A DNA stretch of 64,000 nt from Malacoraja senta (lineage: Eukaryota), in assembly GCA_038087875.1 (NCBI GenBank), contig CM075995.1, positions 3,970,001 to 4,034,000 on the forward strand. The letters are read 5' to 3'. The translations under genes were made by a program, and so were the position numbers. Positions within the stretch are counted from its first letter, which is position 1; each line of letters opens with the position of its first letter. Shown piece after piece: positions 7,330 to 51,748 of the stretch. A model generated the notes under the pieces. The model searched no databases, was not told where the DNA came from, and saw only the letters and a program-made list of their open reading frames with translations.

Positions 7330-8193
7330 GGGGGGCGCCGTTGAGTATGGCTGCCCTGCCAGCAGCTGTTAGTCTTTTCAACCTTTTAAAAAAAAAATTA
7401 GTTAGTTAAAAGTGTTTTGTTTGGAGATCTTTTAGTCTTTTTATGTGGGGGGGGAAGGGGGAAACTATTTTCTCAGTCCCTACCTGGTCGGAGATGCGGT
7501 TTTTCTCCGAGCCGGATCTTCGCCCCTTCCTCGCGGCCTACGGGCAGACTGGAGCGGCGTTTTCCTGCCGGGACCGGCCAGGACTTCAGCTTCGGCAGCG
7601 GCACAGCACTGAAGCGCCATCACGGAGCGAGCGATGCCTAACCCGGGTCGCCGTGCAGCAAGCTCCGGAGTGCTGTGACCGCCGGCACCAACATCGCGGA
7701 GCTGCGATCTGCGGTCTGCGGTCTGCGGTCTGCGGAGCTTCCAGCCGCGGGCGGCGCTGAACCTTGAACACCGCGGAGCCTGGGATCTCACGACGAGGTC
7801 GCCAGAGTCGGAGCATCGACCAGCGCGGCTCGTGGACTTTGGGAGCCGCGGTCTACTGGGAGGAAGTGGCCGCTCCAGACACTCCGGGCCGCGGAGAGTG
7901 TTCACCCGACGCCAGAGCTCCATCATCCGGCGAGAGGGCCTGAGGCATCGGGCTGCCGTAGCGGAGACTGCAGAGGCCTCAATAGGCCCCGACTATGGGT
8001 GAACTGGGGATGGGACTGGACTTTGCTGCCTTCCCCCACAGTGGGAACCATTGTGGGGGGATGTTTTTATGTTTATTGTTAAATTCTGCTAAATTCTTTA
8101 ATGTTATGTATTATCTTTATTCATGTGCTGCATTTGGCGAATTTCACTACACCAATTGGTGTATGTGACAATAAATGTCTCTAAATCTAATCT
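7330..8193 (+). mobile_element. GC-rich non-coding retroposon, copy A
   Basis: GGGGGGCGCC...ATGGCTGCC head, T-rich spacer, CpG-rich body and TGACAATAAA plus (CTAAT)n tail. Homologous to 29706-30477. Confidence 0.7.
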
Positions 8194-8472
8194 AGTCATG
8201 GAGCTATATAACATGGATACGGACCCTTTGGCCCAAATTAACTATGCCGTCCAAGGCACCTACTTGAGCTAGTCAAGTAGACAAAAATGCTGGAGAAACT
8301 CAGCGGGTGAGGCAGCATCTATGGAGGGAAGGAATAGGTGACGTTTCGGGTCGAGACCCTTCTTCGACTGATGTCGGGGGAGGCGCGAAAAAGAAAGGAA
8401 GAGGTGGAGACGGTAGGTTTGAAACTCTGGAAATAGTTTAGCCAACACTCTGTGCGAAAAACTTGCCCCACT

Positions 8473-9465
8473 GGTGTCACAGGTAGATAGTGTGGTCAAG
8501 ATGGCTTTAGGTACATTGGCCTTCATCAGTTAGGGTACTGAGTGTAGACGTTGAGATGTTATGTTACAGTTGTGCAAGACATCGGTGAGGCCACACTAGG
8601 AGTACTTTGTTCACTTTTGGTCACACTGATATAGGAAGGATGTCATTAAGCTGGAAAGAGTGGAGAGAAGATTTACGAGGATGTTGCCAGGACACTAGGG
8701 GCTGAGCTATAGAGAGAGGTTGGACAGGCTAGGAGTTTCTTCCTTGGAGCGCAGGAGGCTGAGGAGGGGGGATCTTATGGAGGGGTATAAGATCATGAAA
8801 GGAATAGATAGGGTGAATGCACAGTCTTTTACCCTGGGTAGTGGAATCAAAAACAAGAGATCATTCACCGATCGGGAAGAAGGTACAGGAGCCTGAAAAC
8901 TGTAACGACCAGGTTCAGGAACAGCTTCTTCCCTACAGCCATCAGGTTATTAAACACAACAGCAAATAAGCTCTGAACTGCAACAGACTATTATTATTAT
9001 TGCCCTATATTTGTTTATTTATTGAGTATGTGTGAATGTGTATATATACACACTGAACTGTGTTTTACTCCCATTGTGTAGTATGTTTACATATTCTGTT
9101 GTGCTGCAGCACGTAAGAATGTCATTGTCCTATCTGGGACATATGACAATAAAACACTCTTGACTCTTGACTTGTAGAAATAAGATGAGAGGAACAAGAT
9201 TTAATATGGACCCGAGGGTCAACTTTTTCACTCTGAGGGTGGTGGGTATATGGAACGAGCTGCCAGAGGAGGTAGTTGATGCAGATACTATAACAGCTTT
9301 TAAAAGACACTTGGAGAGTACATGGATAGTAAAGGTTTAGAGGGATAAGAGAGTACAAGGTTAAGAGGGATATGGGCCAAACATGGGCAAATGCGACTAG
9401 CTTAGATGGGGCATCTTGGTCGGCATGGATGAGTTGGGCCGAAGGGGCTATTTCCACATTTGTGG
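8473..9465 (+). mobile_element. CR1 3' fragment interrupted by a Rex1/Babar-like 3' fragment (~8862-9173)
   Basis: Degenerate RPHLEY/LERV motifs and GGGCCGAAGGG tail. The insert encodes RFRNSFFPTAIRLLN and ends TGACAATAAA...(CTTGA)n. Confidence 0.7.
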
Positions 9466-11024: not shown

Positions 11025-11280
11025 ATTGGGGAGAGGTTGGGGAGTCAGTCTATCCCACCACAGAAGGGGGAGGAGTTGTACAGTTTGATAGCCACAGGGA
11101 AAAAGGATCTCCTGTGGTGTTCTGTGCTGCACCTTGGTGGAACCAGTCTCAGGTTGACCAGTGTGTCATGGAGGGGGTGAGCTGTATTGTCCAGGATGCT
11201 CCGCAGTTTGAGGACCATCCACCCCTCCAAGACCATCTCCCATGAATCTAACTCCGCTCCCTGGATGGAGCCAGCAACCT
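11025..11280 (-). mobile_element. Rex1/Babar-like LINE 3' fragment
   Basis: LRSILDNTAHPLH...RRSFFPVAIKLYNSS in ORF 11045-11296. Confidence 0.7.
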
Positions 11281-12828: not shown

Positions 12829-12830
12829 TC

Positions 12831-15303: not shown

Positions 15304-15371
15304 CTCCACCTATCACTCGGCAGGCTTTGTGCCACATCCACCTCTCCTTTCCCCATCTCATAAGGTCATAA

Positions 15372-15539: not shown

Positions 15540-15587
<48 letters not shown>

Positions 15588-16191: not shown

Positions 16192-16194
16192 TAA

Positions 16195-16640: not shown

Positions 16641-17476
16641 CTTGCCCCTAATCCATCAAACTGAAGAAGGACACAAAACGTTATGCAAAAAACATTTCAC
16701 TAAACAGGTGACAATAAATTAAACGAAACAATGTGTGTCCATTCCCTCCACAGATGCTGCCTGGCTCGCTGAGTTCTTCCAGCTTTTTTGTTTTATGCTC
16801 AAGATTCCAGCATCTGCTGACTCTTGTGTCTCTAAATGTCCAGATAACTGGTCTGTTACATGGATGATATTGCATGAGGATAAATATCGGCATAATAACT
16901 AACAAGAGATCTCCCTTCTTTTGGATAGTTTCATGAAATCTTTTTACTCAGTGTGAGAAGAGTGCAGATCTCAGTTTAACATCTCATCCAAAAGATGGAA
17001 TGTTGACAGTGTGGAACTCAAGTGCTCTGATGTGCAGTATTTACATAGCGAATGATGACCTAGAATGCATTACCAGGGTGGTGGTGGAAGCAGATACGAT
17101 AGTGGTGTTTAAGAGGCTTTTGGATCGGCATGTGGAAGTGCAGGGAGTAGAGGGATGTGCATCATGTACAGGCAGATGAGATCAGTTTAACTTGGCATCA
17201 TGTTTGGCACAATCATTGTGGGTCGAAGAGCCCGTTCCTGTGCTGTACTGTTTTATGTTCTATGTTCTTAGTCTCTAGAGTGAACCTTCACTGAATATAA
17301 TTGTGTTTAGTTTAGTTTGGTTTAGTTTAGTTTAGTTTAGTTTATTAGATCAGTTTATTATCAATGTCACACGTACCGAGGTATAGTGAAAAGCTTTTGT
17401 TGTGTGCTATCCAGTCAAAAAAAAAACTATACTTGATCTACAATCAAGCTGTCCACTGTGCACAGATCAAGGGTAA

Positions 17477-18131
17477 AGGGCCTGTCCCACTTAGGCGATT
17501 TTTTAGGCGACTGCCGGCGACTGTCATAGTCACAGCAGGTTGCCGAAAAACCGGCGACTGAACCCCCCCTACGACAATGTCTACGACAAGCTACAACAAC
17601 CTACCACCTAGTCGACGTCAAGCTACGGCAAGCTACTGGCAACCGGCGACCCATTAGGATGTCCACCTACGACCACCCCTATGACAACCTACGACCACAC
17701 AGGCAACAACCTACGGCAACCAAAGTCAACCTACGTCCACTCGCGACAAGCTATGACAAGCTATGACCCTGTCGACGACAACTGAAGACAATTCAGTCGC
17801 CGGTACCTGTCGCCGGTTGACGTAGGTAGTTGCCAATGGAATTCACCGAAGTCAGCACCGGCGACGACCTACGTCACCTGGTGGCAACCTACGACAGCAC
17901 CTACGTCAGGAGAAGTCAAGCTTGGCTCATTGGCGTCAACCCACTGTCGCAGACTGTCACCGAAATTTTTTGAACATGTTGAAAATCCAGCGGCGACCAG
18001 AAAGACCAGTACGACGCTTTGGGCGACTGAGGAGACTACTCACGACCATACAGGCAACACCCTGGCACTCATGTGGCGACAGCCTAGTCACCTGTAGTCG
18101 CCTAAAAAATAGCCTAAGTGGGACAGGCCTT
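17477..18131. mobile_element. PIF/Harbinger-type MITE
   Basis: TIR AGGGCCTGTCCCACTTAGGCGATTTTTTAGGCGACT. TAA at 17474-17476 and 18132-18134. Internal CTACGAC(A/C) repeats. Confidence 0.88.
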
Positions 18132-19425: not shown

Positions 19426-20400
19426 TCATAGTTCCAGATGGCCAGCTATCTGGACCTGGTGCAATTTGATGTGCACTGATGCTCACCTAGACTAGCTGCA
19501 ACAACTCAAAGAGGGGCAAAGTTTAAAGGAGATGTTCGGGACAATTCTTTTACAAAGAGGGTGAATAGTGCCTGTAACATGTTGCTGGAAATGATGGTTG
19601 AGACAGATGTGATAATGCCATTTGAGACATTTGCATAGGCATATGGATTTGCGTGGAATGGAGGGATATGGATTATGTGCAGCAGAGTTGGTCATAGCAT
19701 CATGCTTAGCCCAGACATTGTGGGCCGAAAGGCCTGTTTTCGTGCTCTATTGTTCTATGTTCTATGTCAACTTTAGCATTCTCATCTTTCCGTCTGATTC
19801 CTTCCATGATCTTGTCCGTTCTGCCAAACTGTATAATCTCCTCCCTGATCTCTGCAACGTTCTCCAATCCTCCCTCCCTCCAGGATCTTTATTCTCCTTC
19901 AGCTTTTGCCTCTTGCATGAATCCAATTTCCTTTTCTAAACCTGGTTTGCCTCAGCTGTCCACTCTCCAATTCATTTCCTCACTGCCTCTGTCCTTAGCT
20001 CCAAGACAAATCTATCTTCTTGATTAAGCAGTTGACCTCCTCACATAACATCTCCTCACACTCTTGTGAAAATCCTAGGAATGTTTTCCTCCAGTAAACC
20101 CATAATATCATTAGGGCGCACAGTGACACAGCGGACAAGTTGCTGCCTTACAGTACAGCACTTACAGCGCGAGAGTCCCGGGTTCGATCCCGACTATGGG
20201 TGCTGTCTGTAAGGAGTTTGGGGCTTAAAAGGGAACACTTAAGAAATGGACTATAATTAATGCAAAGGCCATATAGTCTCAATTTTCAGATAATAATTTA
20301 GTTTAGTTTAGTTTACTTTTTTTATTGTCACGTGTACCGAGGTACAGTGAAAAGGTTTTGTGGCGTGCTAACCAGTCAGCAGAAAGACCATACATGATTA

Positions 20401-20692
20401 CACGCAGCGGTAGAATTGCTGCCTTAGAGTGTGAGAGATCCGGGTTCGATCCCGACTACCGGTGCCTTCCGTACGGAGTTTGTACGTTCTCCCTTTGACT
20501 GCCTGGATTTTCACTGAGACCTTCGGTTGCCTCCCACACTCCAAAGATGTACAGGTAATTGGCTTGGTATAAATGTAAAATTGTCCCTAGTGTGTGTAGG
20601 ATAGTGTTAGCATTAGGATAAGGATCGCTGGTCGGTGCGGACTCGGTGGGCCGAACGGCCCTGTTTCCGCGTTGTATCTCTAAACTAAACTA
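20401..20692 (+). mobile_element. V-SINE
   Basis: Head, body and CTAAA tail as in other copies. Confidence 0.8.
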
Positions 20693-23147: not shown

Positions 23148-23510
23148 ACCAATTTTCTATCCATGTCAACACCCTACCCCCAATACCATGTGCTCTAATT
23201 TTAGTCACCAGTCTCCCGTGCGGGACCTTATCAAAGGCTTTCTGAAAGTCAAGATACACTACATCCACTGGCTCCCCTTCATCCATTTTACTTGTCACAT
23301 CCTCAAAAAATTCCAGAAGATTAGTCAAGAATGATTTCCCTTTCATAAATACATAAGAATGAATTTGCGCCGTTCTAGTAACAACTTGCATTTGTAGACC
23401 CAAGGACTATCTGGGGCTGGGGACTGGACATTGTGCCTTCCCCCACAGTGAAATCATTGTGGGGGGATGATTTTTGTATGTAATTGTTTGTAATTGTATT
23501 TGTTAGTCTG

Positions 23511-23767
23511 TGTTCAAGATGGCGGTCGGAGGGGAGAGTGGACGCTGGCGCGGCTTCGCTGCCGCTGCTCTCTCCTCAAATTGTGCTTCTGATTTTCTTT
23601 TTTGTGTTTTCGGAAGGAATTCTGTCCCTGATTTGTGTATTGGCCTTTATAACTTTTTTTTTTTAAATTCTGATTATATGTTTCCTATAAATCTCTGTAA
23701 GGTGTCCTTGAGACCTCGGTATAAGGCGCCCGTAAATAAAATTCATTATTATTATTATTATTATTAT
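23511..23767 (+). mobile_element. Short non-autonomous element with YY1-motif head and L2-type tail
   Basis: Starts TTCAAGATGGCGG and ends GTAAGGTGTCCTTGAG...AGGCGCC...AAATAAAATT(TAT)n. A second, head-less copy lies at 63191-63375. Confidence 0.65.
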
Positions 23768-24164
23768 CTTTGATCGGTCTTTGTCTTGCACTAAACGTAA
23801 TTCACGTTATTCCCTTTATCATGTATCTTAACACTGTGGATGGCTCAATTGTAATCATATATTGTCTTTACGTTGACTGGTTAGCATGTAACAATAGCTT
23901 TTCACTGCACATCGGTACATGTGACGATACACTAAACTCACCGATCACGGGTAATACATCAGCATAATGAAACATTCCAAGGTGTTTTATAAGTGTTAAT
24001 GGAGACAATGCAACATTTTGTACCCAAATAAGTATTAGGAAAAGTGATCAAATGATTGATTGAAAAACTATTAGGAAGCATATTAAAGAAGGAGGAAAAG
24101 AAGTGGACAGCATTTCTAGACCAGGAACTAATGAAGATTATCTAGCCGAAGGATAGAAAATCGA

Positions 24165-24805
24165 CTGAGCTTATATACACTTGAATTTAGGATGAGAGAG
24201 GATCTTATAGAAACATATAAAATTCTTAAGGGATTGGGCAGGCTAGATGCAGGAAAAATGTTCCCCATGTTAGGGGAGTCCAGAACCAGGGGTCACAGTT
24301 TAAGAATAAGGGGTAGGCCATTTAGGACTGAGATGAGGAAAAACGTTTTCACCCAGAGATTTGTGAATCTGTGGAATTCTCTGCCATAGAAGGGATGGAG
24401 GGCAATTCACAGGATGTTTCAAGAGAAAGTTCGATTTAGCTCTTAGGGCTAACTGAATCAAAGGATATGGAGAAAAAACACGAACGGGGTACTGATTTTG
24501 GATAATCAGCCAAGATAATCAGCATCCCCCTTCCCATCAGAACTGCCCCCTCCATCGACTCCTTTAAGTCAAGACTAAAAACGTATCTATACTCCCAAGC
24601 CTTTCTTGACATCCTCTGAGCGAGGGCTTTATGTATATATGTATGTAGTTTGTTTGTTTATATTATTCTTATAACAAATGTAAAGCACTTTGGCCAACGA
24701 GAGTTGTTTTTTAAATGTGCTATATAAATAAATGTGACTTGACTTGACGATCATATTGAATGGCGGTGCAGGCTCGAAGGGCAGAATAGCCGACTCCTGC
24801 ATTTA
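24165..24805 (+). mobile_element. CR1 3' fragment interrupted by an L2 3' fragment (24525-24748)
   Basis: CR1 C-terminal ORF 24192-24389. The insert reads PIRTAPSIDSFKSRLKTYLYSQAF and ends GTAAAGCACTTTGG...GTGCTATATAAATAAA (GACTT)n. Confidence 0.75.
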
Positions 24806-29517: not shown

Positions 29518-29705
29518 GAAGAGAAAGCAGTTGTCATTCGTTAGATTTAATGTGGGTCACAAAACCTTTTCTAGGATATAGAAAAGCATTTTCGTTGTCG
29601 TCGAATGTCTGATCCTCACCTAGTGCATTTTTGTGGGTCTATGCGAGCAAGCCAAGCACCAGTATAGCACTTCAATCGATCAATTAAAAAAATGCTCATT
29701 GGTAC

Positions 29706-30477
29706 ATAATAATAATAATAATAATAAGTATTTATATAGCACATTTTCCAATTGATTTGAATCAAAAGCCAAAGTGCTTTACAGTTACTAACCATACAAA
29801 TAATAAAAAGAGATAGAAAAAATGACAACACACTATAAGAGATTTTACACAAACACGAACATCCCCCCACAGTAGAATCTCCACTCTCCACTGTGAGGGA
29901 AGGCACCAAAATGTCCAGTCCTCCTCCTCCTCCTAGTCCACCCGAGGTCGGGGCCAGTTTGAGGCTACTGCAGCCAGTCGCCGCAACGGCAGCCCGATGT
30001 TGTTTGCCCACCCGCATCGGGTGGAAAAGTCCTCAGCAGCTTGGAAATGTCTGGAGCGGCCACTCCTTCCCCAGAGACTGCGACGCCCGTGGATTTCAGG
30101 CCGCGCCGGTTGGAGCTTCGACTCCGCGGTGTCGCCCTCAAACCGCAGACCGCAGACTGCGGCTGCCCGATGTTGGTGGTCGGCGGCCACAGCACTCCGG
30201 AGCGGCGACCCGGCAAGGCATTGCCCGCTCCCTGCTGATGTCCCAGCGCTGTGCTGCCGAAGCTGTGGTCCCCGGCAGGAAACGCCGTTCCAGCCCGATG
30301 GAAGGCCGCATGGGGAGACCGGAGACGCGATTTGGAGGAAAACCGCATCTCTGACCAGGTAGGACTGGGGTTAAAACAGTTCCCCCCCCCCCCCCACATA
30401 GAAAGAATAGACTCCAAAAATAAATGTTCAGACAATAAAAGAGTTAGAGGACGGACTGCAGGCAGGCGGCCATACAT
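29706..30477 (-). mobile_element. GC-rich non-coding retroposon, copy B (L2-type tail)
   Basis: Body homologous to 7330-8193 (CCTACCTGGTC.GAGATGCGG; CTCCGGAGTGCTGTG; TGCGGTCTGCGG). Tail is GTAAAGCACTTTGG...GTGCTATATAAATAC(TTA)n. Confidence 0.72.
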
Positions 30478-32756: not shown

Positions 32757-32858
32757 TGTTGGCCGGTGCAAATGCAAGAAGGTGGGACTTAGTATAGATG
32801 GGAAATGTTGGCCGTTGTGGGCATGTTGGTCCAAAGGGTCCAGTTTCCACACTGTAAG

Positions 32859-36456: not shown

Positions 36457-36488
<32 letters not shown>

Positions 36489-36660: not shown

Positions 36661-38624
36661 AGGACAGGGAGAGATTAAGGATTAATGTTATGGTGATTTG
36701 GTGCAATAAGGCAAAGCGAATTGGACAAGGATCCAACGAGTAAAGACAAAATGGCTACAGGCTTAGACGTTAATAGATTGGAGGTTGTGCATAATGAAAG
36801 TGTACATTGCTACACCATCAGAAGAGGGCAGGCCACATCCGAGCTGCTTGTGAGTAATGATTCAGAAGCTTATATTAATGAACGGTTTTCTACATCCCTT
36901 CACTTTATTTGAAGTGTATTGGCTGTTAATTACATTAAATATGACGGGTAAGATGCAAACTCCTACAAAACTGCAAAGTGATAATTGTCTGAAAATGTTT
37001 TCTGTAATGTTGATCGAGGGATTAAAATTGGCCAGACAACAGTGATAACTCATCTGCGCTTTGCCAAAACAGTTCCTTGCAGATTTGTTACATTCCCCCA
37101 AATGAACAACTCAGAAACTCATCTTAACATCTTGTCAAAAAGCTGACACCATGAACAGTACAGTACTCTTCACGGCTACAGTGGAGAGTCGGCTGAGGTA
37201 CTTGTGCCCTACAATGTGTTTTGAACCCACAAAGTTTGGGCTCAAAGGCAACTATGAAGCAACACAGTGGTGCAGCGGTAGAGTTGCTGCCTTACAGAGC
37301 CAGAGACTGGGTTCAATCCTGACGACGGGCGCTGTCTGTACGGAGTTTGTACATTCTCCCTGTGACCACGTGGGTTTTCTCCAGGTGCCCCGGTTTCCTC
37401 CCACGCTATAAAGTCGTACAGGTTTGTAGGTTATTTGGCTTTGGTAAAGATTGTCAATTGTCCTGTGTAGGATAGTGTTAAGGGATCGCTAGTCGGCACA
37501 TACTCGGTGGGCCAAACCTTCTGAACCTTCTGAATTTGTAGTCGGCAGGGCAGTACTCTGCATATCGCCAGCTTGGATGTGTTGTGCATACTAACGTGCT
37601 ATTAGTAGGTATGTTACAATACTTATCTTCAGCAGCGCTGCAATTCTGCCACTGGCCGTGTGCGCGATTTTGGCGCCTTTGAGGGGGGGCGGGGTTAAAA
37701 CGCGGGTTTCTCCTACCTTGTCCTGAATTATATTTTGTTGGAGTGCCAGCGTTTGCTGAAAAATCGTTCCGACGGGCGTTTGTGTATTTTCTATTTTTAT
37801 TCGATCGACAAGTTCAGCACTGGAATTATTTTAAAATCAGCTTCGAAAGCTGTCAACGCCGACAACGGGGACGGATTTCACGCACGGGACAGGTAAACGA
37901 AAGCAGTTTATTTTATGTATAAAAGTGCTTCTTAAGAGGCCTTTAATTCACATTTATTAATGCAAAACGGTGATTCTTTTCCCCAAACTAACGGCAGAAT
38001 TTTTCATGCCGATACGGGGTTAAAATCACCGCAAATCAACGTTCCAAATGATCGCGTTCCAGAAAAACCCACTCGCAAGATGATTTAAATGCCCATTAAT
38101 TTACAGGTGTTAAACATTAAATTCCTTCCATTTGGCCTGTAAATCCGTGACAATGAGATTTAAAAATTATGTTATATGGTGAATTCTTGTGTGAATGTTA
38201 TTTGGACACTTAGGCTATTTAAAAATGTTAATCTATTCTTAAGAAATTAATAGATGTTTAGATCTAGTAATTGAATTTTGTAATTAGCTACAATTAGGTA
38301 ACTAACTAATTATATGCTTTAATTTCATGTCATCTAAGTAAGATTGTTTCATATTTGTTTCAGAATGCTTCAATCTATAATAACTGAAAACAAATTTCAG
38401 TTCTCTTAATTTTTACGAAAGTTATGGGCTTTTGACTGTCCTCGATCACAACTTTTGTGTTAAGTCAATGGAAAAGCAATAGGGAACAAGATGCTAATTT
38501 CTGAGTATGAAAATGGCCATAATTTTTTTTATACTGATGATATGAAAGTGAATTAAAGGTCTGTCTCACTGTGCGAGTTGACCCACGAGTGACCCCGAGT
38601 GAAAGACTCGTGGTTGCGTACGAT

Positions 38625-40432
38625 ACTTCCGGAAGTGGCGGCGCTGTTGCACAGCTGCGGCTCGCCTGCAGTCCGTCTGTTTTTACTTTTTTTGTTGTTT
38701 TCTTTTGTCCTGTTTTAGTTAAATGTTAGTTTATTGGGTTGTGTACGTGTGGGGTGGGGGGGGGGGGTGAAACATGATTTTTGTCTCTTCCTTCGGGGAA
38801 TGCGACTTTTTCTTGTCGTATCCCCCTTCTAGAATAGAATAGAATAGAATAGAATAGAATAGAATAGCCTTTTATTGTCATTCAGACCGAAGTCTGAACG
38901 AAATTGAAGCAGTCGTACATAAAACAACAATAAACACACATTAACATCCACCAAAGTGAGTCCACCCAACATCTCCTCACTGTGATGGAGGCAAAAGTCT
39001 TAGGTCTGCAGTCTCTTCCCTCCTCTTCTCCCTCTGCGCTGAAGCGATACCCCCCGGGCAATGTTTCCCGCGGCTCAAACACCGCGGCCCGGGGTGGTCG
39101 AAGCTGCCGCCCACCAGTCCTGCAAACGCAGCCGCTGGCCCGCGGCCGAACCCCGGACTCAGGCCACCACCACCAGAACACCGTCCCAGCCACCCTCACG
39201 TGAGTACCATCTTCAGCCTCGGTCTGGGCTGCCCTGACATGGGCGTCGCTTCTCCCTCGGGCCGGGCCACCCCGACATGGGCATCGCTTCTCCTCCCGGC
39301 CGGGCCACCCCGACATGGGCATCACTTCTCCCCCCGGCTGGGCCGCCCCGACATGGGCACCGAACTTCCCTCGGGCTGCGAGCGCCGCACCTCCCTGAGC
39401 TCGGCCGCTCCAACGGGAGCCTCGTTCCACCCTTGGGCTCCCCGCCCTCACGAGAGCGCCACAACCTCACGGGAGCACTGTTCCAGCCCTGAGCCGGACC
39501 GCCCTCATGGGAGCGAGCTCAGGGCGAGTCCTGACGGGCTCTGCCTCCGGAGCCTCGAGGTCATCAGCTCCATTAGGCCTCAACGCAGACGGAGGCAGAG
39601 AAGGGGAATACGACAAAAAAGTCGCATTCCCCCGCAGGGAGAGACTGCAAACCCCGTTACAACCCCCCACCCCCCCCCAAAACACAAACTAAAAACCAAA
39701 AACTAGACTAACCAAAACAAAATAAACAACACAAAAAACACAAACAAACAGGACTGCCGATGAGCCGCTGAAGCCAGTGCCGCGCCGCCACTTCTCTGCC
39801 TCCGTCTGCGCTGAGGCCTAATGGCGGAGCTGCTGGCCTCCAACTCCAACTGCGACCGACCGACCTCGAGGCTCCGGAAGCAGAGCCAGGACTTACCAGC
39901 GCGGGGCTGGCCGGCTTCAGGGCTGCAGTGGCGTTCCAGCGGTGGCGACCGAGGACGCTGGTGGCGACCTGAGTCCGGAGGCTCGGCCGCGGGCCCGGTG
40001 GACGACATCATCGGGTGCTCGCAGGTCACAGGTGGGTGACCTGTTTTTCTGGGGCTCCCGCAACTACAGCTGCGTCCGCTGGACTGGAGGGCGGCAGCTT
40101 CGGCCGCCCCGGGCCGCGGAGTTTGAACCGGCCCGTCGCGGAGCGGAGCTCGGATTCAGCCGCGGGACTGACTTGCCATCACCCAGCGGGGTCACAACGT
40201 CAGAAGCCTGGATCGCCTCAGTGCAGAGGGAGAACAAAGAGGGAAGAGACAGAGACTTTAAGACTTTGCCTCCATCATAGTGAGGAGGTGCCTGGTGAAC
40301 TCACTGTGGTGGATGTTAATTTGTGTTTATTGTGTGTTTTGTTATTTATTATATGTATGACTGCAGGCAACGAAATTTCGTTCAGACCGAAAGGTCTGAA
40401 TGACAATAAAGGAATCTAATCTAATCTAATCT
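38625..40432 (+). mobile_element. GC-rich non-coding retroposon, copy C (split by copy D)
   Basis: Head ACTTCCGGAAGTGGCGGCG. Body resumes at 39791. Tail TTCAGACCGAAAGGTCTGAATGACAATAAA(CTAAT)n. Confidence 0.72.
38831..39790 (-). mobile_element. GC-rich non-coding retroposon, copy D, nested in inverse orientation in copy C
   Basis: Head (GAAG)TGGCGGCGCG, (ATTCT)n tail, CTTCT at both junctions and an internal ~38-bp tandem repeat (39225-39360). Confidence 0.75.
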
Positions 40433-40923: not shown

Positions 40924-43146
40924 GCGGCTGCCGACCACAGGTACATCACTGCATGAGGAGAGCCCACATGCAGAAAAATCCAGTTAATTTCATGTTTAGT
41001 TTAAATCCTGCTGACTTTTCTTTGTTTAACTTTAAGTGTGGATTTTATTTTTTATTGTGGTGTAAAAGTAATTTCATTGCATCTGTCTTTCCTTTAAAAC
41101 GTGGTTATCATGCATCTGCTTATCTGATTGTAGATCTCAAATCTTGTCATTTAGCGCATTGCATTGTATCTTTTATTGCCTGAATTTAGACTAGTGCATT
41201 TCTCAGCTGAATTAGTATATCGTGGAAATACTTTTATTTGTTGATTTTCATGTATGAGAAGCCCTTTTTCAGACCACTGTGTTGTTTGCTGTGGTGCTCC
41301 TTTTCACATGTGCAAAAAAGCGTTTTTTATATTGAACAAGATGAATAAAGACTTTGTTTCACATTCACCGTGCTGTTTGTCTTATTTTCTGATCTACTGA
41401 GAGGGGACAATTTTAAACATTTAAAAAGCACAGCATATGAGGCAGCTGTCCTTAAATCTCATAAATGATTGTGAGAATCAAGATGTGAATATATGTTGCC
41501 TTCCTCTATTTTGTGTTTTATGATGAAAGGAATATGACATTCAAGTCATGAGACTTTGTAGTGATATTAAAATGAAGACTTCCAGACATCAATTTGATCT
41601 TGATAGCAAAGAACTCTCTTTTATTGTGCAATGAAGTAAACAAACAGTGAGAATCAAACGGATCAGCAAAAAGCTTTTCAACACAACACAACACAACACA
41701 AATTTATATATAAACTTCAAGCAATTTTTTCTTTTCAACCCACTCTATCACCTTATCAATAACTTGCTTAACTTTGTTAAGCAGAATTTGTCTTTAAAAA
41801 GTCTAAGTAACTGATATTTCTGTCCCTGATTATTGTTTCTAAAAAGAGTTCCCACGGTAGAATCACGAGTCACAAAGTTAAACGCGCGGGCCACTACGTT
41901 CTTACAACGAGTTTAAAATGTTTCAAATTTTAACTTCAAGAGTACATTTTACTCGTGGAAAAGTTCAAACATGTTTGAACTTTTGCAAGAGTTAACAAGT
42001 TTCACGTGTACCTCCCGTTAGCGCCAAAAGTCGCTAAGTTGCGTCCACGAGTTCCGACGTTCCCGCTACGTTAATTGTACGTGATTACCACGAGTTAAAT
42101 TTGTTTTAAACTCGGGGTCACTCGTGGGTCAACTCGCACAGTGAGACAGCCCTTTTAGGTGTCAAATTAAACGTCTTTTTATGCTTTATCTGATGGGATA
42201 AATTACAGACTTGATTTTTTAAATCTCAAAATGTTGTAACATTGCTACTGTTAGTGCCCCCTTAAAACTGTCTAGTGAAGGTGATTTGACTATATTGTTG
42301 TCTAGTTTATTCCATACCCTTAAGGTTCTTACAAAGAATGAGTTCTTATAAATATATGTCCTGGCGAATAGGGTTTCTATTTGCATATCATTTCTCTTTC
42401 TTGTTCACCTTTCTGTTGAGTATGTTATGTATCTATCTGCAGTTGTGCCCACGATCCCCTTTTGAATCTTGTACAACATGGCTAGTCTGTTCCTTGCCCT
42501 TCCTGTTTCCAGCGTTTCCCACTCCAGGTCGGACAGCATCTGGGTAACACTGCTACCTCTATTGTAGTTCCCGATGCAAGAGCGTGCTGCTTTCCTCTGT
42601 ACCCCTTCTAGTTTGTTGATATGACCAGTTTTGTATGGGTCTCAGGCGCATGAAACGTATTCCAGTAAGGGTCTAACCAATGTTGTATATGCTGTGGTTT
42701 TCACTTCCTTTGGGCAGAACCAGAGGTTTCGTCTGAGGAGTCCTAATGTCCGGTTGGCTTTAGTGACCGTGTTGTCCACGTGTTCCCTCCACGAAAGCTT
42801 GCAAAGGGCCTGTCTCCGCGCTGTATCTCTGAACTAAACTAAACTAAAGTAACCCTATGGTTCTTCTTCTTGAACACTCTCAGGGATGAAGGCTAGTTGC
42901 TTCCACTCCAGTTCTGTGTCTTGAAGTGACTGCTCCGGGCAATGTTGGCCACACAATATAGGCACAGGTTGAGCAGTAGGTATTGGGCTGCTGTGTGCTC
43001 TCGACAAATATAAACAAGATTCTAGGTGCTGTCCCAAATGACGCTGGACTTTTGAGCAGTCATGGGACAGGGATTTCCACGGATGCTGCCTGACCTATCG
43101 ATTGTTACAGTATTTTATTTATTTTATTTAAAATGCTACACAGCTA

Positions 43147-44689: not shown

Positions 44690-45345
44690 AGATGCTGGAG
44701 GAACTCAATGGGTCGGGCAGCATCTCTGGAGGGATTGGGACCCTTTTTCAGACTGATTGGGCAAAGCCATTAAATGGTAGATGGATAAAGATGAGATAGG
44801 GAGCTTCTTGGTTGCAAGATGGGTGGAATAAGTGACAAAGGCCAGCAGTGAAAAGGAGACAAAATGGTGTAAGATAAGGAGAAAAAAGAGTATCAGAGGA
44901 AGGGATGTAGGTGGAAAGGGATGGAGGGAAGGGAAAAGGGGGTAGCTGTGGAAAGTTGGTAGCTGAGATAGTGAGAGAAATTGGTACGCATCCTAGTGGA
45001 GCATAGGGAAGAGAGGGAAAAGGGAGGGGAGGTTTATCTAAAATTGGAGAATTCAATGTTCATACCATTGGGTTGTAAGTGACCCAAGCAGAATATAAAG
45101 TGCTATTCCTCCAGTTTATGGGTGGCCTCACTCTGGCAATGGAGGAGGCCCAGAACAGAAAGATCATTGTGGAGATGAAGTAGAGAGTTAAAATGGTTAG
45201 CAACTGGGAGATCCAGCAGACTTAGGCCCAATGTTTGGTGAAATTGGCACAGGCATCGGTGAAACCTAGTGTTTTGTCTAACACTTGCCAAACACCAAAG
45301 CCCGCTGGTGTCCCAGTTGTTGACCATTTTAACTTCCCTTCCCAT
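44690..45345 (-). mobile_element. Old Penelope-like 3' fragment with a short inverted piece
   Basis: DLPVANHFNS...DLSVLGLLHCQSEATHKLEE in ORF 45103-45375 plus terminal repeat remnant. Confidence 0.7.
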
Positions 45346-46234
45346 TGGAAAAAGATGAATCATGGAAGAGCCCAAAGCAAATCGTCGAGTTTATTGGTTC
45401 TGCACAAGTAGGTGAGGTACAGGTGCAATGAAAATCTTGCATGCAGCAGCATCACAGACAAACATGCAAACATAAATTACACGTAAATTAGACATAAAGT
45501 ACACATAAGTACTGCAAGACAGTGAAAAGAAACAGAGTGCAAAAACCACAATATTAGCATAAAACACAATTTGAAAACAAGTCCATGATAGTGCATGAGG
45601 TGGGCTGTAGTAACATAGAAAAATAGGTGCAGGAGGAGGCCATTGGCCCTTCGAGTGCCAAGGTAGGATTGGGGTATTGGTATTGGTTTATTAATGTCAC
45701 GTGTACCAAGATACAGTGAAAAGCTTTGCGTAATATCCAGTCCATACATGAGTACAATAAAGCCATGCGCAGGTACTACAAAGTGAAAAATACCAATGTG
45801 CAGAATGTAGTGTTACATTATTATAACATTAAATTTACAGAGAAAATTCAGGAGTCAAAGTCAAAGTCAATTTTATTCGTCACATGCTCCCGAAGGTGCA
45901 GTGAAATGAATTTACATACATAGATGCATAGAAAATAGGTGCAGGAGTAGGCCATTCGGCCCTTCGAGCCTGTACCGCCATTCAATATGATCATGGCTGA
46001 ATTTGGAAGCAGGAAAGCAAAAGTGCAAGGGCCGCAATAAGGTAGGTTGAGAGATCAGGTGTAATGGCTTGGCTTATGAGAGGACCATTCAGTAATCTGA
46101 TAATAGCAGGGAAGAAGCTGTTCCTGAAACAGGTAGCACATACTTTAAAGCTTTTGTACCTTCTACCTGACAGGGGAGGGGAGAAGAGGAAATGACTGGA
46201 GTGTGAATGGTCCTAGAATATGTTGTCTGCTTTG

Positions 46235-46527
46235 GACACAAAATGCTGGAGTAACTCAGCGGGTCAGACAGCAGCTCTGGAGAAAAGGAATAGGTTACGT
46301 TTTGGGTCGAGACCGTTCTTCAGACTGAGTCGGGGGAAAGGGAAACGAGAGATATAGATGGTGATATCTCTGGTTTCCCTTTCCCCTGGCTCTCAGTCTG
46401 AAGAAAGATCTCGACCTGAAACATCAGCTATTCCTTCTCTCCAGAGATGCTGTCTGACCCCTTGGGTTACTCCAACTTTTTGTGTCCACCTTCAGTTTAA
46501 AGCAGCATCTGCAGTTCCTTCCTACAC
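46235..46527. mobile_element. Fold-back Penelope-derived miniature element with two opposed hammerhead remnants
   Basis: Inverted arms GGACACAAAA...CAGACTGAG / CTCAGTCTGAAGA...TTTTGTGTCC. Confidence 0.72.
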
Positions 46528-47591
46528 AAGTTTTCTGCTTTCCCATGTCAGCGTGAAGTTAGATGGAGCTGATGAGGGAAATGGACTACATCTACAACTC
46601 TAAACATTCTTGGAGTCTTGAGAAGAACTGTTCCCAAGCAAAGCTGTGAAGCGGCCTCAATAGGATGCTTTCCACTAAACATCAGGAGAAGTCGGTAAGA
46701 GTCATCGGAGACATGATGAACTTCCTCAATCTCCTGAGGAAGTAGAGGCTTTTGTGCACTTTCTTGGCCTTCGTCGGGTGGTGTGGGTTGGTTCAAGAAC
46801 CTGAGATAAGAGTTCTGTTGTTTGTAGCAATATAGCCGTTGATGAACCTGGTGGTGTGTGGGACCGCAGATAGCTGTGAGAAGAGGGCATTGCAGCACTG
46901 TGCAATGCCAAGTAAACTGTAAAAACTAACTGCAGCCAAGTCTCCTTCTTTTTGCTTATCTCAGGAGGATTTTTGTCTTGTGAAATTATGTCACTGACAA
47001 GTTAATTGGATCTCTCAAAACCATTTAACATACTGGTTATATTGAGGAATCTTTCTCCCAGATCTTTCTGGTTGAAATCTGAAGCTGGTTCCCTAGAATA
47101 AAGACTACACACAAATTTGAGAAACAGCACCTCATATTCCACTTGGGCATCTTACAAATCAGCAGTATGAACATTGATTTATCTCATTTCAAGTAACTCC
47201 TGCATTCTTTTCTCCCAAACACCCCCCCCCTCCCCTCCCCCCCTACACCCTAGTCACCCTACTAGTTCCACTGTTTGCATCCTTCTATCCCTGTCATTAG
47301 CACATCTTCTCCTGTCAACAATGGGCCATTGTGGGCTCCACCCTTCCTGAGGTCATGTTCTCTTCTGGCCTTCTCTCTTTCAGTCTGAAGAAAGGTTCTG
47401 ACCCGAATCGTCAGCTATTCCTTTTCTCCAGAGATGTCATCTCACCCACTGAGATACACCAGAATTTCGTGCCCACCCTATATTAAAAGCCAGTTTTCTT
47501 TCTCCCTGCTAATCGTTTCAAACCAGCTCAGATTTTGATCTTAATTCATTTTTTGGGATGTGGGGTCGTAAAGGCAGCATTTATTGCCAAC

Positions 47592-47815
47592 GGTAGACAA
47601 AAATGCTGGAGAAACTCAGCGTCTATGGAGCGAAGGAAATAGGCAACGTTTTGGGCCAAAACCCGTCTTTAGCTCTTAGGCCTAATGGAATCAAGAGTTT
47701 CGGCCCGAAACATTGCCTATTTCCTTCGCTCCATAGATGCTGCCGCACCCTGCTGAGTTTCTCCAGCACTTTTGTCTACCTTCTATTTTCCAGCATCTGC
47801 AGTTCCTTCTTAAAC
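47592..47815. mobile_element. Fold-back Penelope-derived miniature element
   Basis: GGTAGACAAAAATGCTGGAGAAACTCAGC... and its reverse complement enclose a short CR1-derived spacer. Confidence 0.72.
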
Positions 47816-48734
47816 ATTTATTGCCAACGATTGTTTTTGTGACCTCTGTGGCCATCATTGATTTCCATTTTGCTTAAATAAGTGAAAATACTCCTCAGAT
47901 TCTTCAACTGCATCATAAGTTCTTGGTGGACCAATAATTAGGTTGTGACCTAACTTATGAAACTCTTCTAGTTTAATGAGATGTTATTTTTTGTTATATT
48001 AGTGAAGCTCTTTATGCTTTATGCTAGCATAATCAGGATAACCGAGTTCATTTAATTCCTCCAGTGCATTTAATAAAAAATAGTCAGTAAAAATCCTTCT
48101 TCTCTGCATGCTCTTCATTTAAAAAGCAGAGCACCTTCAGAGCACGAATAGCACCTTCAGACAAGCTTAAAAGAACCATGCAAGAAGAAGGGTCTCGACC
48201 AGAAACGTCACCTATTCTTCGCTCCATAGATGCTGCCTCACCCACTGAGTTTCTCCAGCATTTTTATCTACCTTCCATTTTCCCAGCATCTGCAGTTCAT
48301 TCTTAAACATGCAAGAGGGATATGCCATGTTCACAAAGGCAAATCATCATCAAGAGAGAATTAGATTTAGCTCTTAGGGCTAATGGAATCAAGGGTTATG
48401 GGGGGAAAAGCAGGAACAGGGTACCGATTTTGGATGATCAGCCATAGTCATATTGAATGGCGTTGCTGGCTCAAAAGGCCGAATGGCCCTTATATCATGG
48501 ACATGCTCTTCACAAATTTACACAGTGAGACTTCTAAGAATTTCTCAAATGCAAAGTAAACCAAATAGTTCAAAATTATGTGTAGGAAGGATCTGCTGAT
48601 GTCGATTTATACCGAAGATAGACACAAAATGCTGGAGTAACTCAGCAGGACAGGCAGCATCTCCGGAGAAAAAGAATAGGTGAAGTTTTGGTTCTAGACC
48701 CTTCTTCAGACCAGGCAGCAGGTACCCAGACCTG

Positions 48735-49185
48735 TTATGGAGTCATAGAGTTAAACAGTGTGGAAACAGACCCTTCAGCTCAACTTGCCCACATCAGCTA
48801 CACTAGTCCCACCTGGCCACGTTTTGGCTCCTATCCCTCAAAACCTGTCCTATCCATGTACTTGTCTAACTGTTTCTTCAATGTTGGGATAGTCCCAGCC
48901 TCAATTACCTCCTCTGGCAGCTTTTTCCAGACATCCACCACCCTTTGTGTGAAAAAGTTACCCCTCAGATTCCTATTAAATCTTTTCCCCTTTCACCTTA
49001 AACCTATGTCCTCTGGTCCTCGATTCACCTACTCTGGGCAAGGAACTCTGTGCATCTACCTGATCTATTCCTCTCATGATTTTATGCACCTCTATAAAGA
49101 TCACCCTCATCCTCCTGTGCTCCAAGGTCCCAGCCAATTCAACCTCTCCCTATAGCTCAGACCCTCTCGCCAGGCAACATCCTTT
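48735..49185 (-). mobile_element. CR1 LINE 3' fragment
   Basis: Reverse complement of the 18878-19425 type. Confidence 0.78.
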
Positions 49186-51748
49186 GATTTGATAAAGGAA
49201 CGAGGTTAATGAGCCATTAGGAGGTAGTGACCATAATATGATCAGGTTTAATCTACAATTGGAGAGGGAGAAGGGTAGACCGGAGGTGTCAGTGTTATAG
49301 TTGAATAAAGGGGACTATGGGGCCATGAGGGAGGAGCTGGCCAAAGTTGACTGGAAAGATACCCTAGCAGGGATGACAGTGGAACAAGAATGGCAGGTAT
49401 TTCTAGGAATAATACAGAAGGTGCAGGATCAGTTCATTCCTAGGAGGAAGAAAGATTCCAAGGGGAGTAAGGGGCGACCATGGCTGACAAGGGACGTCAG
49501 GGACAGTATAAAAATAAAAGAGAAGTACAACATAGCAAAGATGAGCGGGAAGCAAGAGGATTGGGTAATGTTTAAAGAGCAACAGAAGATAACTAAAAAG
49601 ACAATACGGGGAGAAAAGATGAGGTACGAAGGTAAGCTAGCCAAGAATATAAAGTGGGATAGTAAAAGCTTCTTTAGGTATGTGAAGAGAAAAAAATCAG
49701 TTAAGACCAAAGTTGGACCCTTGAAGACTGAAAAAGGTGAATTTATTATGGGGAACAAGGAAATGGCAGATGAGTTGAACAGGTACTTTGGATCCGTCTT
49801 CACTAAGGAGGACACAAACAATTTTCCTGATATAGTAGTGGCCAGAGGATCTGGGGTGACAGAGGAACTGAACGAAATCCACATTAGGCAGGAAATAGTG
49901 TTGGGTAGACTGATGGGACTGAAGGCTGATAAATCCCCAGGGCCTGATGGTCTGAATCCCAGGGTACTTAAGGAAGTGGCTCTAGAAATCATGGATGCAT
50001 AGGTGATAATTTTCCAATGTTCTATAGACTCAGGATCAGTTCCTGTGGATTGGAAGATAGCTGATGTTATCCCACTTTTTAAGAAAGGCGGGAGAGAGAA
50101 AAGATAAGATAAGATAAGATAAGACTTTATTAGTCCCCTTATTCAGGGGAAATTCAGATGTCCTTGCAGCACACTAATAAAAATACAACATAGTGTTCAA
50201 AAAGAAGTTCAACACAAAAACATCCCCCCACAATGGTTCCTACTGTGGGGGAAGGCACAAAGTCCAGTCCCCATCCTCTTGTCCACCCAGAGTCGGGCCC
50301 ACTGAGGCCTCCACAGTCCCGCCACGGCGCCCAGGGAATTATAGACCAGTTAGCCTGACATCGGTGGTGGGGAAGATGCTGGAGTCAATTATAAAAGATG
50401 AAACAGCTGCACATTTGGATAGCAGTAACAGGATCGGTCCGAGTCAGCATGGATTTATGAAGGGGAAATCATGCTTGACTAATCTTCTGAAATTTTTTGA
50501 AGAAGTAACTAGGAAAATGGACAAGGGAGAGCCAGTGGATGTAGTGTACCTGGACTTTCAGAAAGCATTTGATAAGGTCCCACATAGGAGGTTAGTGGGC
50601 AAAATTAAGGCACATGGTATTGGGGATAGAGTGCTGACATGGATAGAAAATTGGTTGGCAGACCGGAAACAAAGAGTAGGGATTAACAGGTCCCTTTCAG
50701 AATGGCAGGCAGTGACTAGTGGGGTACCGCAAGGCTCGGTGCTGGGACCGCAGCTATTTACAATATACATCAATGATTTGGATGAAGGGATTCAAAGTAA
50801 CATTAGCAAATTTGCAGATGACACAAAGCTGGATGGCAGTGTGAACTGTGAGGAGGATGCTATGAGAATTCAGGGTGACTTGGACAGGTTGGGGGAGTGG
50901 GCAGATGCATGGCAGATGAAGTTTAATGTGGATAAATGTGAGGTTATCCACTTTGGTACCAAAGACAGGAAGGCAGATTATTATCTAAATTGTGTCAAGT
51001 TGAGAAAGGGGGAAGTACACCTGGATCTGGGGGTCCTTGTTCATCAGTCAATGAAAGTAAGCATGCAGGTACAGCAGGCAGTGAAGAAAGCGAATGGCAT
51101 GTTGGCCTTTATAACAAAAGGAGTCGAGTATAGGAGCAAAGAGGTCCTTCTGCAGCTGTACAGGGCCCTAGTGAGACCACACCTGGAGTATTGTGTGCAA
51201 TTTTGGTCCCCTAATTTGAGGAAGGACATTCTTGCTATTGAGGGAGTGCAGCGTAGGTTTACAAGGTTAATTCCCGGGATGGCGGGACTGTCATATGCTG
51301 AGAGAATGGAGCGGCTGGGGTTGTACACTCTGGAGTTTAGAAGGATGAGAGGGTATCTTATTGAAACATATAAAATTGTTAAGGGTTTGGACACGCTAGA
51401 GGCAGGAAACATGTTCCCGATGTTGGGTGTCCAGAACCAGGGGCCACAGTTTAAACATAAGGGTTAAGCAATTTAGAACGGAGACGAGGAAACACTTTGT
51501 TTCACAGAGAGTTGTGAGTCTGTGGAATTCTCAGCCTCAGAGGGCGGTGGAGGCCGGTTCTCTGGATACTTTCAAGAGGGAGCTAGATAGGGCTCTTAAA
51601 GATAGCGGAGTCAGGGGATATGGGGAGAAGGCAGGAACTGGGTACTGATTGGGGATGATCAGCCATGATCACATTGAATGGCGGTGCTGGCTCGAAGGGC
51701 CGAATGGTGTACTCCTGCACCTATTGTCTATTGTCTATTGTCTATTGT
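49186..51748 (+). pseudogene. 5'-truncated CR1 LINE ORF2 (RT), ~2.3 kb plus an insertion
   Basis: ORFs 49301-50002 and 50332-51467 with [32 protein letters not shown] and FADDTKL. (CTATTGT)n tail. Stop at 50000 and frameshift near 51427. Confidence 0.93.
50103..50331 (-). mobile_element. 5'-truncated GC-rich retroposon (copy E) inserted in CR1
   Basis: Matches the 3' body of copy A (GAGGCCTCA...GGACTGGACTTTG.GCCTTCCCCCACAGT) but has a different tail ending AATAAAG(TCTTA)n. Confidence 0.72.

What the first reader, a model, noticed from the sequence alone, without database searches (positions are those of the whole stretch)
7330..50331. Modular family of GC-rich non-coding retroposons with interchangeable LINE tails
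Seen: six related pieces, A 7330-8193(+), 23402-23510(+), B 29706-30477(-), C 38625-40432(+), D 38831-39790(-) and E 50103-50331(-). The near-complete copies share one layout: GC head, T-tract, G-tract, 5' hairpin, CpG-rich body, 3' hairpin, tail. They lack tRNA A/B boxes and any recognisable protein. B and C share GCCTGCAGTCCGTCT. The tails differ: B ends in an L2-type tail matching the L2 fragment at 24680-24730, while A, C/D and E end in three different AATAAA-plus-microsatellite tails resembling Rex1/Babar ends. Inference: a non-autonomous, probably Pol II-driven retroposon group with a conserved structured core that has switched helper LINEs repeatedly, analogous to V/CORE-SINE superfamilies but without a small-RNA head. 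I do not recognise it as a named family.
Basis: partly seen in the sequence, partly recalled or inferred. Interest (0 to 1): 0.75.

Follow-up and report, generated by a model that had tools for sequence, protein, structure and literature searches.

The report
Fish retroposon family swapping LINE tails
A family of long, protein-free jumping DNA elements, apparently from a cartilaginous fish, keeps one structured middle section but carries different LINE-type ends, which suggests it has changed the partner element that copies it at least once.

Summary
The six pieces are real and homologous. One relaxed 3'-hairpin pattern hits exactly these six, with no match in any of 100 shuffles. A and C align end to end (z=17). 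They form two lineages, A/B/E/F and C/D (100/100 support), and D is nested inside C. No Pol III box pair, Rfam family or conserved reading frame was found. Tails of A, C, D and E are one homologous class that matches the end of an in-window LINE (Rex1-like by recall). B carries an L2-type tail that matches an in-window L2 end. B sits in the core lineage of A and E, so the L2 tail is the derived state. Contigs from one related organism cover B's core and tail at high depth. Another organism covers the core but not the tail. No listed contig spans the core-tail joint. Verdict: a high-copy, non-autonomous, LINE-mobilised retroposon group with one cross-clade tail switch well supported. Repeated switching is only suggested, and Pol II transcription is untested. 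I could not exclude that the core is an unknown LINE's 5' UTR or is already in Dfam/Repbase.

The parts
7330..8193 (+). Copy A, near complete. G-tract 7447-7461, 5' hairpin about 7489-7522, 3' hairpin 8027-8059, Rex1-like tail about 8120-8193
23402..23514 (+). Piece F: 3' hairpin (23434-23465) and T-rich stretch only, 5'-truncated, no tail of its own; cut off by repeat G at 23515
29706..30477 (-). Copy B, near complete. G-tract 30382-30395, 5' hairpin around 30348, 3' hairpin 29864-29905, L2-type stem-loop tail about 29706-29783 ending in (ATT)7
38622..38830 (+). Copy C, 5' part: head with a 12-nt palindrome of two CCGGAAGT sites (38625-38636; ETS-like by recall), T-tract, G-tract, 5' hairpin
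38831..39794 (-). Copy D, nested in C with a 4-5 nt duplication that overlaps its head. 38-nt tandem repeat in the body (39217-39378), 3' hairpin 38948-38993, Rex1-like tail with (TTCTA)n
39795..40432 (+). Copy C, 3' part: body, 3' hairpin 40267-40312, Rex1-like tail from about 40355 with (AATCT)4
50103..50331 (-). Piece E, 5'-truncated: end of body, 3' hairpin 50225-50257, third Rex1-like tail variant with (TCTTA)n; inserted cleanly into a CR1-like RT frame without target duplication
24518..24748 (+). Reference, not a member: 3' end of an L2-like LINE (frame ending FKSRLKTYLYSQAF; clade name recalled) whose tail shares 16-nt and 19-nt exact blocks with B's tail
   Evidence: (z 10.1)
8863..9170 (+). 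Reference, not a member: 3' end of a LINE (frame ending SFFPTAIRLLN; Rex1-like by recall) whose tail is of the class seen in A, C, D, E
   Evidence: (A z 6.7, C z 3.5, E z 2.8, D z 1.8, B z 0.7)

Best explanation
A high-copy group of non-autonomous, non-coding retroposons, 770-960 nt long, in a cartilaginous fish (probably a skate; host inferred from recalled repeats). Shown in sequence: all copies share a core of T-tract, G-tract, 5' hairpin, CpG-rich body of variable length and 3' hairpin, in two old lineages (A/B/E/F and C/D). The ends are LINE 3' ends. Inferred mechanism: an RNA made from the GC/CpG-rich head, probably by Pol II, is bound at its 3' stem-loop and microsatellite by the RT/endonuclease of a Rex1-like LINE and pasted by target-primed reverse transcription. 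This explains the 5'-truncated copies (E, F) and the absent or very short target duplications. The Rex1-like tail is ancestral. In the B sublineage a template switch or recombination replaced it with an L2 3' end, and that form then expanded in one host lineage with L2 enzymes. Further exchanges among Rex1-like tails are likely but less certain. The two hairpins are kept under selection on structure, most plausibly for RNA stability or RT engagement (function inferred, untested).
For: Homology and layout. No conserved frame: 5 of 22 A-B indels and 7 of 29 C-D indels are multiples of three; 0 of 10 element ORFs reach a Pfam cut-off. No Pol III box pair in the first 200 nt of 4 of 4 copies, while a control SINE in the window has both boxes. 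No Rfam family at gathering score. Hairpins: 3' stem 14 pairs, 2 with double-sided changes; 5' stem 12 pairs, 5 with double-sided changes. Tails match in-window LINE ends. Core splits C/D from A/B/E/F at 100/100, but in tail scores A goes with C (z 9.0) and B does not (B-C z -1.3, B-D z -1.1); in run X2, contigs cover B's body (summed depth 94,000-544,000 per bin), the joint bin (33,080) and the T-rich/L2 tail (10,600-58,900). In run X4 the core is covered (up to 228,600, patchy) but the three tail bins are 0. At 12 sites I picked, X2 contigs mostly carry B's letter and X4's mostly do not. Further copies of both lineages exist as chance ORFs in other assemblies (P0001, P0002, P0003). E and D are clean single insertions of core plus tail.
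Against: No listed contig spans B's core-tail joint: the longest listed pieces begin at 29852, and the loose-end table was filled by a CR1 tail at the stretch's edge. The tail depth in X2 could come from an autonomous L2 family. Summed depth is by the tool's own warning no copy number, and the unique flank had zero depth, so there is no local baseline. Tails of A and E were each seen once only. Cross-lineage body similarity is weak (A-C z 3.8, B-C 1.3, A-D 0.6, B-D -1.2). Single-copy folding z-scores are weak for some hairpins (A 5' -0.72, D 3' -0.79, E 3' -1.34), and the covariation rests on 4-6 sequences from two lineages. A's and B's tails are themselves somewhat alike (z about 3.2-3.5). 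Pol II initiation was not tested. The names Rex1, L2, YY1 and ETS are recalled and come from no call.
Confidence: 0.58

Rival explanations
1. Bipartite internal-deletion derivatives: the core (head to 3' hairpin) is the long 5' UTR of an uncharacterised autonomous Rex1- or L2-like LINE of this fish, joined to its own 3' end; the B tail is a later exchange.
For: Heads carry motifs that resemble Pol II start-site motifs of LINE 5' UTRs (ATGGC[CT]GCC in A and B, CCGGAAGT in C; identities recalled). A CpG island with internal repeats is typical of LINE 5' UTRs (recalled). PMC13343379 notes repeated subunits near the 5' UTR of some ORF1-less CR1-group elements (passages). Bipartite LINEs are probably Pol II-driven and can lose the 5'/3' link by tail exchange (PMC5786205).
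Against: None of the six pieces runs into coding sequence, and none of the window's LINE fragments carries the core. The 3' hairpin always sits 117-158 nt from the element's end in 5 of 5 tailed pieces. PMC5786205 lists ORF-less bipartite LINEs only for RTE, Ingi, Vingi and R2. All this is weak, since no full-length LINE could be examined.
Confidence: 0.25
2. One or two real families (Rex1-like tail); B, and perhaps A or E, are single-copy chimeras made by a one-off template switch or by an L2 end landing on a core.
For: Each of the A, B and E tails was seen on a core only once in the window; no listed contig bridges B's joint.
Against: In X2 a B-like core type and B's tail region are both deep and within about 3.4-fold of each other (median body 177,105 against tail mean 52,062), and both are missing or scarce in X4. 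The joint bin is covered (33,080). The tail sits at the same spacing as in the other copies.
Confidence: 0.08
3. The elements have no promoter of their own, or use Pol III in a non-canonical way, and are copied from read-through transcripts; or B's L2-like tail arose by stepwise change of an A-like tail and not by exchange.
For: Heads differ between lineages (cross-lineage head z at most 1.7). A and B tails align at about 60%. No transcription data.
Against: Long T-tracts just behind the head would stop Pol III (established knowledge). CpG observed/expected is 0.79-0.92 in the four long copies against 0.49 for the window. B shares 16-nt and 19-nt exact blocks with a true L2 end, hard to reach by drift.
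Confidence: 0.06
4. A decayed protein-coding non-autonomous LINE (HAL1- or Sponge-like, ORF1 only).
For: A and B share an open frame through the G-tract and 5' hairpin (105 and 170 codons).
Against: Indels are not frame-preserving (5 of 22, 7 of 29). No Pfam hit above cut-off. The only protein-level matches are single-member, unnamed clusters, two of them antisense. Long open frames are expected at 68% GC.
Confidence: 0.03

Closest known systems
HCD-SINE superfamilies (CORE, V, Deu, Meta), e.g. HE1, SacSINE1 and CmiSINEs of cartilaginous fish
   Same: Modular head-body-tail build, a shared body used with several LINE tails, tail exchange as a way to change helper (PMC5499810 passages; PMC11481361 abstract; PMC3747384 table passages).
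   Different: No tRNA/5S/7SL head or A/B box pair; 770-960 nt long; CpG-island body; long T-tracts near the 5' end. Similarity to the CORE/V/Deu consensus sequences could not be tested.
ORF-less bipartite non-autonomous LINEs (RTE, Ingi, Vingi, R2 derivatives)
   Same: Non-coding, probably Pol II-driven, LINE 3' end, tail exchange possible (PMC5786205 passages).
   Different: Tails here are Rex1-like and L2-like, clades not listed there as making such derivatives; no parent 5' UTR identified; the same core goes with two LINE clades.
GC-rich-head SINEs of birds (BuceSINE, ManaSINE2)
   Same: GC-rich head of unknown origin without a small-RNA gene, on a LINE-derived tail (PMC4844689 passages).
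   Different: Those carry a bipartite AviRTE tail from one helper. This group has a long structured core, two old lineages and tails from two other clades.
VNTR composite retrotransposons of apes (SVA, LAVA, PVA, FVA)
   Same: Long, GC-rich, non-coding, moved in trans; shared 5' part, variable centre with tandem repeats (38-nt repeat in D, 7-nt repeat in A), different 3' parts (PMC4432496, start of abstract in the search listing).
   Different: Those use L1 and a poly(A) tail throughout and are built from Alu/ERV/L1 parts. Here the 3' ends are stem-loop-plus-microsatellite tails of two helper types.

Membership tests
tRNA/5S/7SL-headed SINEs (incl. CORE, V, Deu superfamilies) | Small-RNA-derived head with Pol III A and B boxes | tested here: not met
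   No A+B pair in the first 200 nt of 4 of 4 copies; D has one A-like match with a mismatch and no B; the control SINE has both. Rfam: none at gathering score; at E<=1 only one bacterial sRNA match far below its cut-off in A, none in B or C/D.
tRNA/5S/7SL-headed SINEs (incl. CORE, V, Deu superfamilies) | Body homologous to a named conserved domain (CORE, V, Deu, Meta) | not testable with these tools
   No SINEBase/Dfam/Repbase library is held. The pieces do not match the window's own abundant SINE.
LINE-mobilised non-autonomous retroposons (general) | 3' end homologous to an autonomous LINE's 3' end, with stem-loop and microsatellite | tested here: met
   B against L2-like end z 10.1; A against the LINE end at 8863-9170 z 6.7; C, E, D weaker against that one end (3.5, 2.8, 1.8) but homologous to A or C. 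Stem-loops fold in the tails.
LINE-mobilised non-autonomous retroposons (general) | Dispersed multi-copy units, 5' truncation, no protein | tested here: met
   Six pieces with unrelated flanks; E and F 5'-truncated; high summed contig depth in two other runs; no conserved frame.
Bipartite non-autonomous LINEs | 5' part colinear with the 5' UTR of the autonomous LINE that gives the tail | not testable with these tools
   No genome held; no full-length Rex1/L2 element in the window; searches for a full-length relative found nothing.
Bipartite non-autonomous LINEs | Pol II transcription from the element's own 5' end | tested here: inconclusive
   RNA run X23 laid 0 of 10,085,944 reads, also none on the CR1 tail in the stretch, so it is no test.
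Rex1/Babar clade as helper | The LINE that donates the A/C/D/E tail class falls in the Rex1 clade by RT phylogeny | tested here: inconclusive
   Only short C-terminal fragments are in the window. One related fragment (46688-46792) hits PF09004 above cut-off, which I associate with Rex1-type ORFs from recall. The atlas gave unnamed clusters only. Rays are reported among the Rex1-richest vertebrates (PMC13343379).
Retrozymes / ribozyme-headed retroelements | Hammerhead or HDV-like ribozyme in the element | tested here: not met
   No Rfam ribozyme match at gathering score or at E<=1; divergent HDV-like folds can escape these models.

The most novel reading that the evidence does not exclude
An old, Pol II-driven, structure-conserved retroposon superfamily of batoid fishes whose core derives from no LINE and no small RNA. 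It has diversified into several high-copy families by picking up tails from several Rex1 lineages and from L2, following helpers that reach rays by horizontal transfer. It would be a Pol II counterpart of the CORE/V-SINE superfamilies and a source of thousands of dispersed CpG-island promoters.
Probability: 0.4. Interest if true: 0.72.

Novelty: new variant of a known kind. Interest (0 to 1): 0.5.

Why it matters
Tail exchange is well known for Pol III SINEs. Protein-free, Pol II-type passengers were, in the review I read (PMC5786205, 2018), reported only for RTE, Ingi, Vingi and R2 helpers. Either leading reading extends that list to Rex1-like and L2 helpers, and the best reading adds a long non-SINE core that survives a change of helper clade. 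The natural tail variants on one core give a ready test of how strictly Rex1 and L2 enzymes read their 3' stem-loops, and of what the two internal hairpins do. A CpG-rich element at thousands of loci also matters for repeat annotation and regulatory studies in skates and rays. It remains a repeat-family finding, with no host function shown.

Tried and rejected
Whole-genome search: no genome is held. Collection scans with the 3'-hairpin pattern: viral contigs gave 2 loci with no further similarity; JGI metagenomes 0; GTDB genomes 2 bacterial loci, one with a 98-nt 66% match around the pattern itself and no profile hit, taken as chance. A tail pattern I tried on the window was too strict and matched nothing. 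Protein search with B's sense ORF: 0 of 63 candidates. Search for full-length relatives of a LINE-end fragment: none; the atlas gave unnamed clusters with low recognition. Pfam on LINE-end fragments: 0 of 3 and 1 of 3. ARAGORN found no tRNA in the window, including the control SINE, so it is uninformative. No RNA holder was listed. RNA run X23 laid no reads anywhere on the stretch: no test. Run X1 laid one contig only. Earlier findings: six look-ups, nothing shown. Literature: nine searches listed no paper that by title or abstract start describes this group; the library lacks most subscription papers, Dfam and Repbase, and I read no supplements. Rejected: coding origin (indels break frame), tRNA-headed SINE (no boxes), ribozyme head (no Rfam match), and treating repeat G (23515-23767) as a member (G against A z 0.0, against C 1.8; only tail likeness to B).
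Full report
Setting. No genome is held for this window. The window is packed with repeats: CR1-like RT fragments, an abundant tRNA-type SINE, a GIY-YIG element and a tyrosine-recombinase retroelement. From recall these look like a cartilaginous fish, probably a skate; no call names the host.

All six pieces are where stated. A relaxed pattern for the 3' hairpin matches 6 places in the window, exactly these six, and none of 100 shuffles gave a match. A profile from A, B and C finds nothing else. A-B align at 63% over 739 columns, A-E at 77% over 185, A-F at 85% over 80, C-D at 76% over head and 3' end, A-C at 60% over 357. Against shuffles that keep 30-nt local composition, so that T-tracts and GC body cannot score by composition alone, z is 57 for A-B, 30 for C-D, 17 for A-C and 8 for B-C, but only 2.8 for A-D and 2.1 for B-D. 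D is nested in C with a 4-5 nt duplication that overlaps its head.

Anatomy. In 4 of 4 long copies the order is GC head, T-tract, G-tract, 5' hairpin with ATGCG and a U-rich loop, body of 383-574 nt at 67-70% GC with 37-54 CpG, 3' hairpin, T-rich stretch, tail. CpG observed/expected is 0.79-0.92 against 0.49 for the window. Between the two lineages the signal sits in the G-tract/5' hairpin block (z 1.3-5.9) and the 3' hairpin block (z 3.8-7.1). Bodies match only weakly (z -1.2 to 3.8) and heads not at all (z at most 1.7). The consensus 3' stem has 14 pairs, 2 with double-sided changes; the 5' stem has 12 pairs, 5 with such changes. This rests on 6 and 4 sequences from two lineages, and single-copy z-scores range from -6.0 to -0.7. 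D's body holds a 38-nt tandem repeat and A's a 7-nt repeat.

Not coding, not a Pol III SINE. Only 5 of 22 A-B indels and 7 of 29 C-D indels are multiples of three. None of 10 element ORFs reaches a Pfam cut-off. The protein searches returned three unnamed single-member clusters that are translations of further copies: P0001 and P0002 antisense to the A type, P0003 sense to the C/D type with yet another body. No A+B box pair lies in the first 200 nt of any of the 4 copies, while the control SINE has both. Rfam gives nothing at gathering score and one sub-threshold bacterial match at E<=1. Heads carry ATGGC[CT]GCC (A, B; the only 2 places in the window) or a palindromic pair of CCGGAAGT (C; one other place in the window). 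I recall these as YY1-like and ETS-like Pol II start-site motifs; that is a lead, not a test.

Tails. A, C, D and E end in one class: an AATTTC-like lead-in, a small hairpin, GAC(T)AATAAA and a pentamer microsatellite. They are homologous (A-C z 9.7, C-D 20, C-E 6.6, A-E 5.2; D-E only 1.8). The window holds a LINE end at 8863-9170 whose frame ends SFFPTAIRLLN and whose tail is of this class (A z 6.7, C 3.5, E 2.8, D 1.8, B 0.7). I call it Rex1-like from recall; a related fragment hits PF09004. B's tail shares exact 16-nt and 19-nt blocks with the LINE end at 24518-24748 (z 10.1), whose frame ends FKSRLKTYLYSQAF, L2-like by recall.

Core and tail disagree. A tree of the 3' core segment splits C/D from A/B/E/F at 100/100; the order within A/B/E/F is unresolved. 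Rex1-like tails occur on both sides of that split and the L2 tail only on B, so the L2 tail is the derived state. A's tail scores higher against C (58) than against E (40) although its core is closer to E, which hints at a second exchange among Rex1-like tails. One loose end: A's and B's tails are also somewhat alike (z 3.1-3.5).

Mobility marks. E is 5'-truncated and sits in a CR1-like RT frame that reads on cleanly on both sides, with no target duplication. D is a clean nested insertion. Both show core plus tail moving as one unit, once each.

Evidence from other runs. Of 24 runs listed I laid 4 on 29560-30560 at 80% likeness. X23 (RNA) laid 0 of 10,085,944 reads and X1 one contig, so neither is a test. 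In X2, summed contig depth is 94,000-544,000 per bin over B's body, 33,080 in the joint bin, 45,000-59,000 over the T-rich stretch and 10,600 at the end of the L2 tail. In X4 the core is covered unevenly (781-228,600), the joint bin at 604 and the three tail bins at 0. Of the 40 variant rows shown (57 in all) I picked 20. At 12 of them X2 mostly keeps B's letter (0.1-25% differ), while in X4 half or more differ at 11 of the 12. At the other 8, B differs from nearly all X2 depth, as private mutations would. So a B-like core type and B's tail are both abundant in X2's organism and both scarce or absent in X4's, where related cores exist. Dividing by the median depth of 16 low-depth contigs I picked (37) gives roughly 4,800 for the body and 1,400 for the tail. 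The tool warns that such sums are no copy number, the unique flank had zero depth, and 40 letters at the microsatellite were skipped, so I take only 'about thousands'. No listed contig spans the joint, and the loose-end table was filled by a CR1 tail at the edge; physical linkage at many loci is inferred, not shown.

Mechanism. Shown: non-coding modular units with LINE 3' ends, 5' truncation and a core-tail conflict. Inferred: Pol II transcription from the CpG-rich head (the T-tracts argue against Pol III), recognition of the 3' stem-loop by Rex1-like or L2 ORF2 in trans, and a template switch or recombination that gave the B lineage its L2 end. Confidence 0.58 for the whole chain. The main rival (0.25) is that the core is the 5' UTR of an unknown autonomous LINE; I could not test it.

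Comparison with what is known. Tail exchange on a shared body is established for tRNA-headed SINEs (PMC5499810, passages; PMC11481361, abstract; PMC3747384, passages; PMC7245038, passages). ORF-less bipartite LINEs are reported from RTE, Ingi, Vingi and R2 only and are thought Pol II-driven (PMC5786205, abstract and passages). Two bird SINEs have GC-rich heads of unknown origin on AviRTE tails (PMC4844689, passages). SVA/LAVA share a 5' part and vary at the 3' end but stay with L1 (search listing). Rays are rich in Rex1 and show many Rex1 and L2 transfers with teleosts (PMC13343379, passages), a setting in which helper turnover would favour tail exchange. Nine searches listed no description of this group, but Dfam, Repbase, most subscription papers and all supplements went unseen, so automated or curated entries may exist.

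Verdict. It works like a SINE superfamily with exchangeable tails but fails the SINE head test; whether it is a bipartite LINE is open. New variant of a known kind, interest 0.5; 0.72 if the core proves independent of any LINE and Pol II-driven.

Noticed in passing
window 23515-23767 (+) and 63192-63381 (-): A second short non-coding repeat family (81% over 197 nt): head beginning CAAGATGGCGG (YY1-like by recall), T-rich body, L2-like tail with (ATT)n, no tRNA boxes. It may be another Pol II-type passenger; it lacks the core of the finding.
   Followed up: partly
window 23402-23514 and 23768-23940 (+): Behind repeat G lies a Rex1-like 3' end of a family also seen at 2655-2870, 17336-17480 and 20300-20405. 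If G split one element, piece F once carried a fourth Rex1-like tail; the spacing (221 nt against 117-158) does not fit well.
   Followed up: partly
window 8120-8193 against 29706-29790: A's Rex1-like tail and B's L2-like tail align at about 60% (z 3.1-3.5); unexplained, chance or a hybrid tail.
   Followed up: partly
window 54006-57900 (-): Decayed tyrosine-recombinase retroelement (DIRS-like by recall): RT (PF00078) at 55527-56462 and phage-integrase-family domains at 54006-55019.
   Followed up: no
window 22227-22865 (-): GIY-YIG endonuclease fragment (below Pfam cut-off), Penelope-like by recall; its short terminal repeat family occurs in many copies, often as inverted pairs.
   Followed up: no
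window 32857-33814 and 37604-38555: Two copies (84% over 966 nt) of an AT-rich repeat, each adjoining a stretch that matches 42110-42255; possibly a DNA transposon.
   Followed up: no
window 8863-9170, 26782-27000, 11048-11200 (-), 46640-46800 (-): Four fragments of Rex1-like LINE C-termini from at least two lineages.
   Followed up: partly
window 51749-51809 (+): An isolated stub of the C/D-type tail (91% over 44 nt) with an (ATCT)n run, attached to the end of a CR1-like copy.
   Followed up: no
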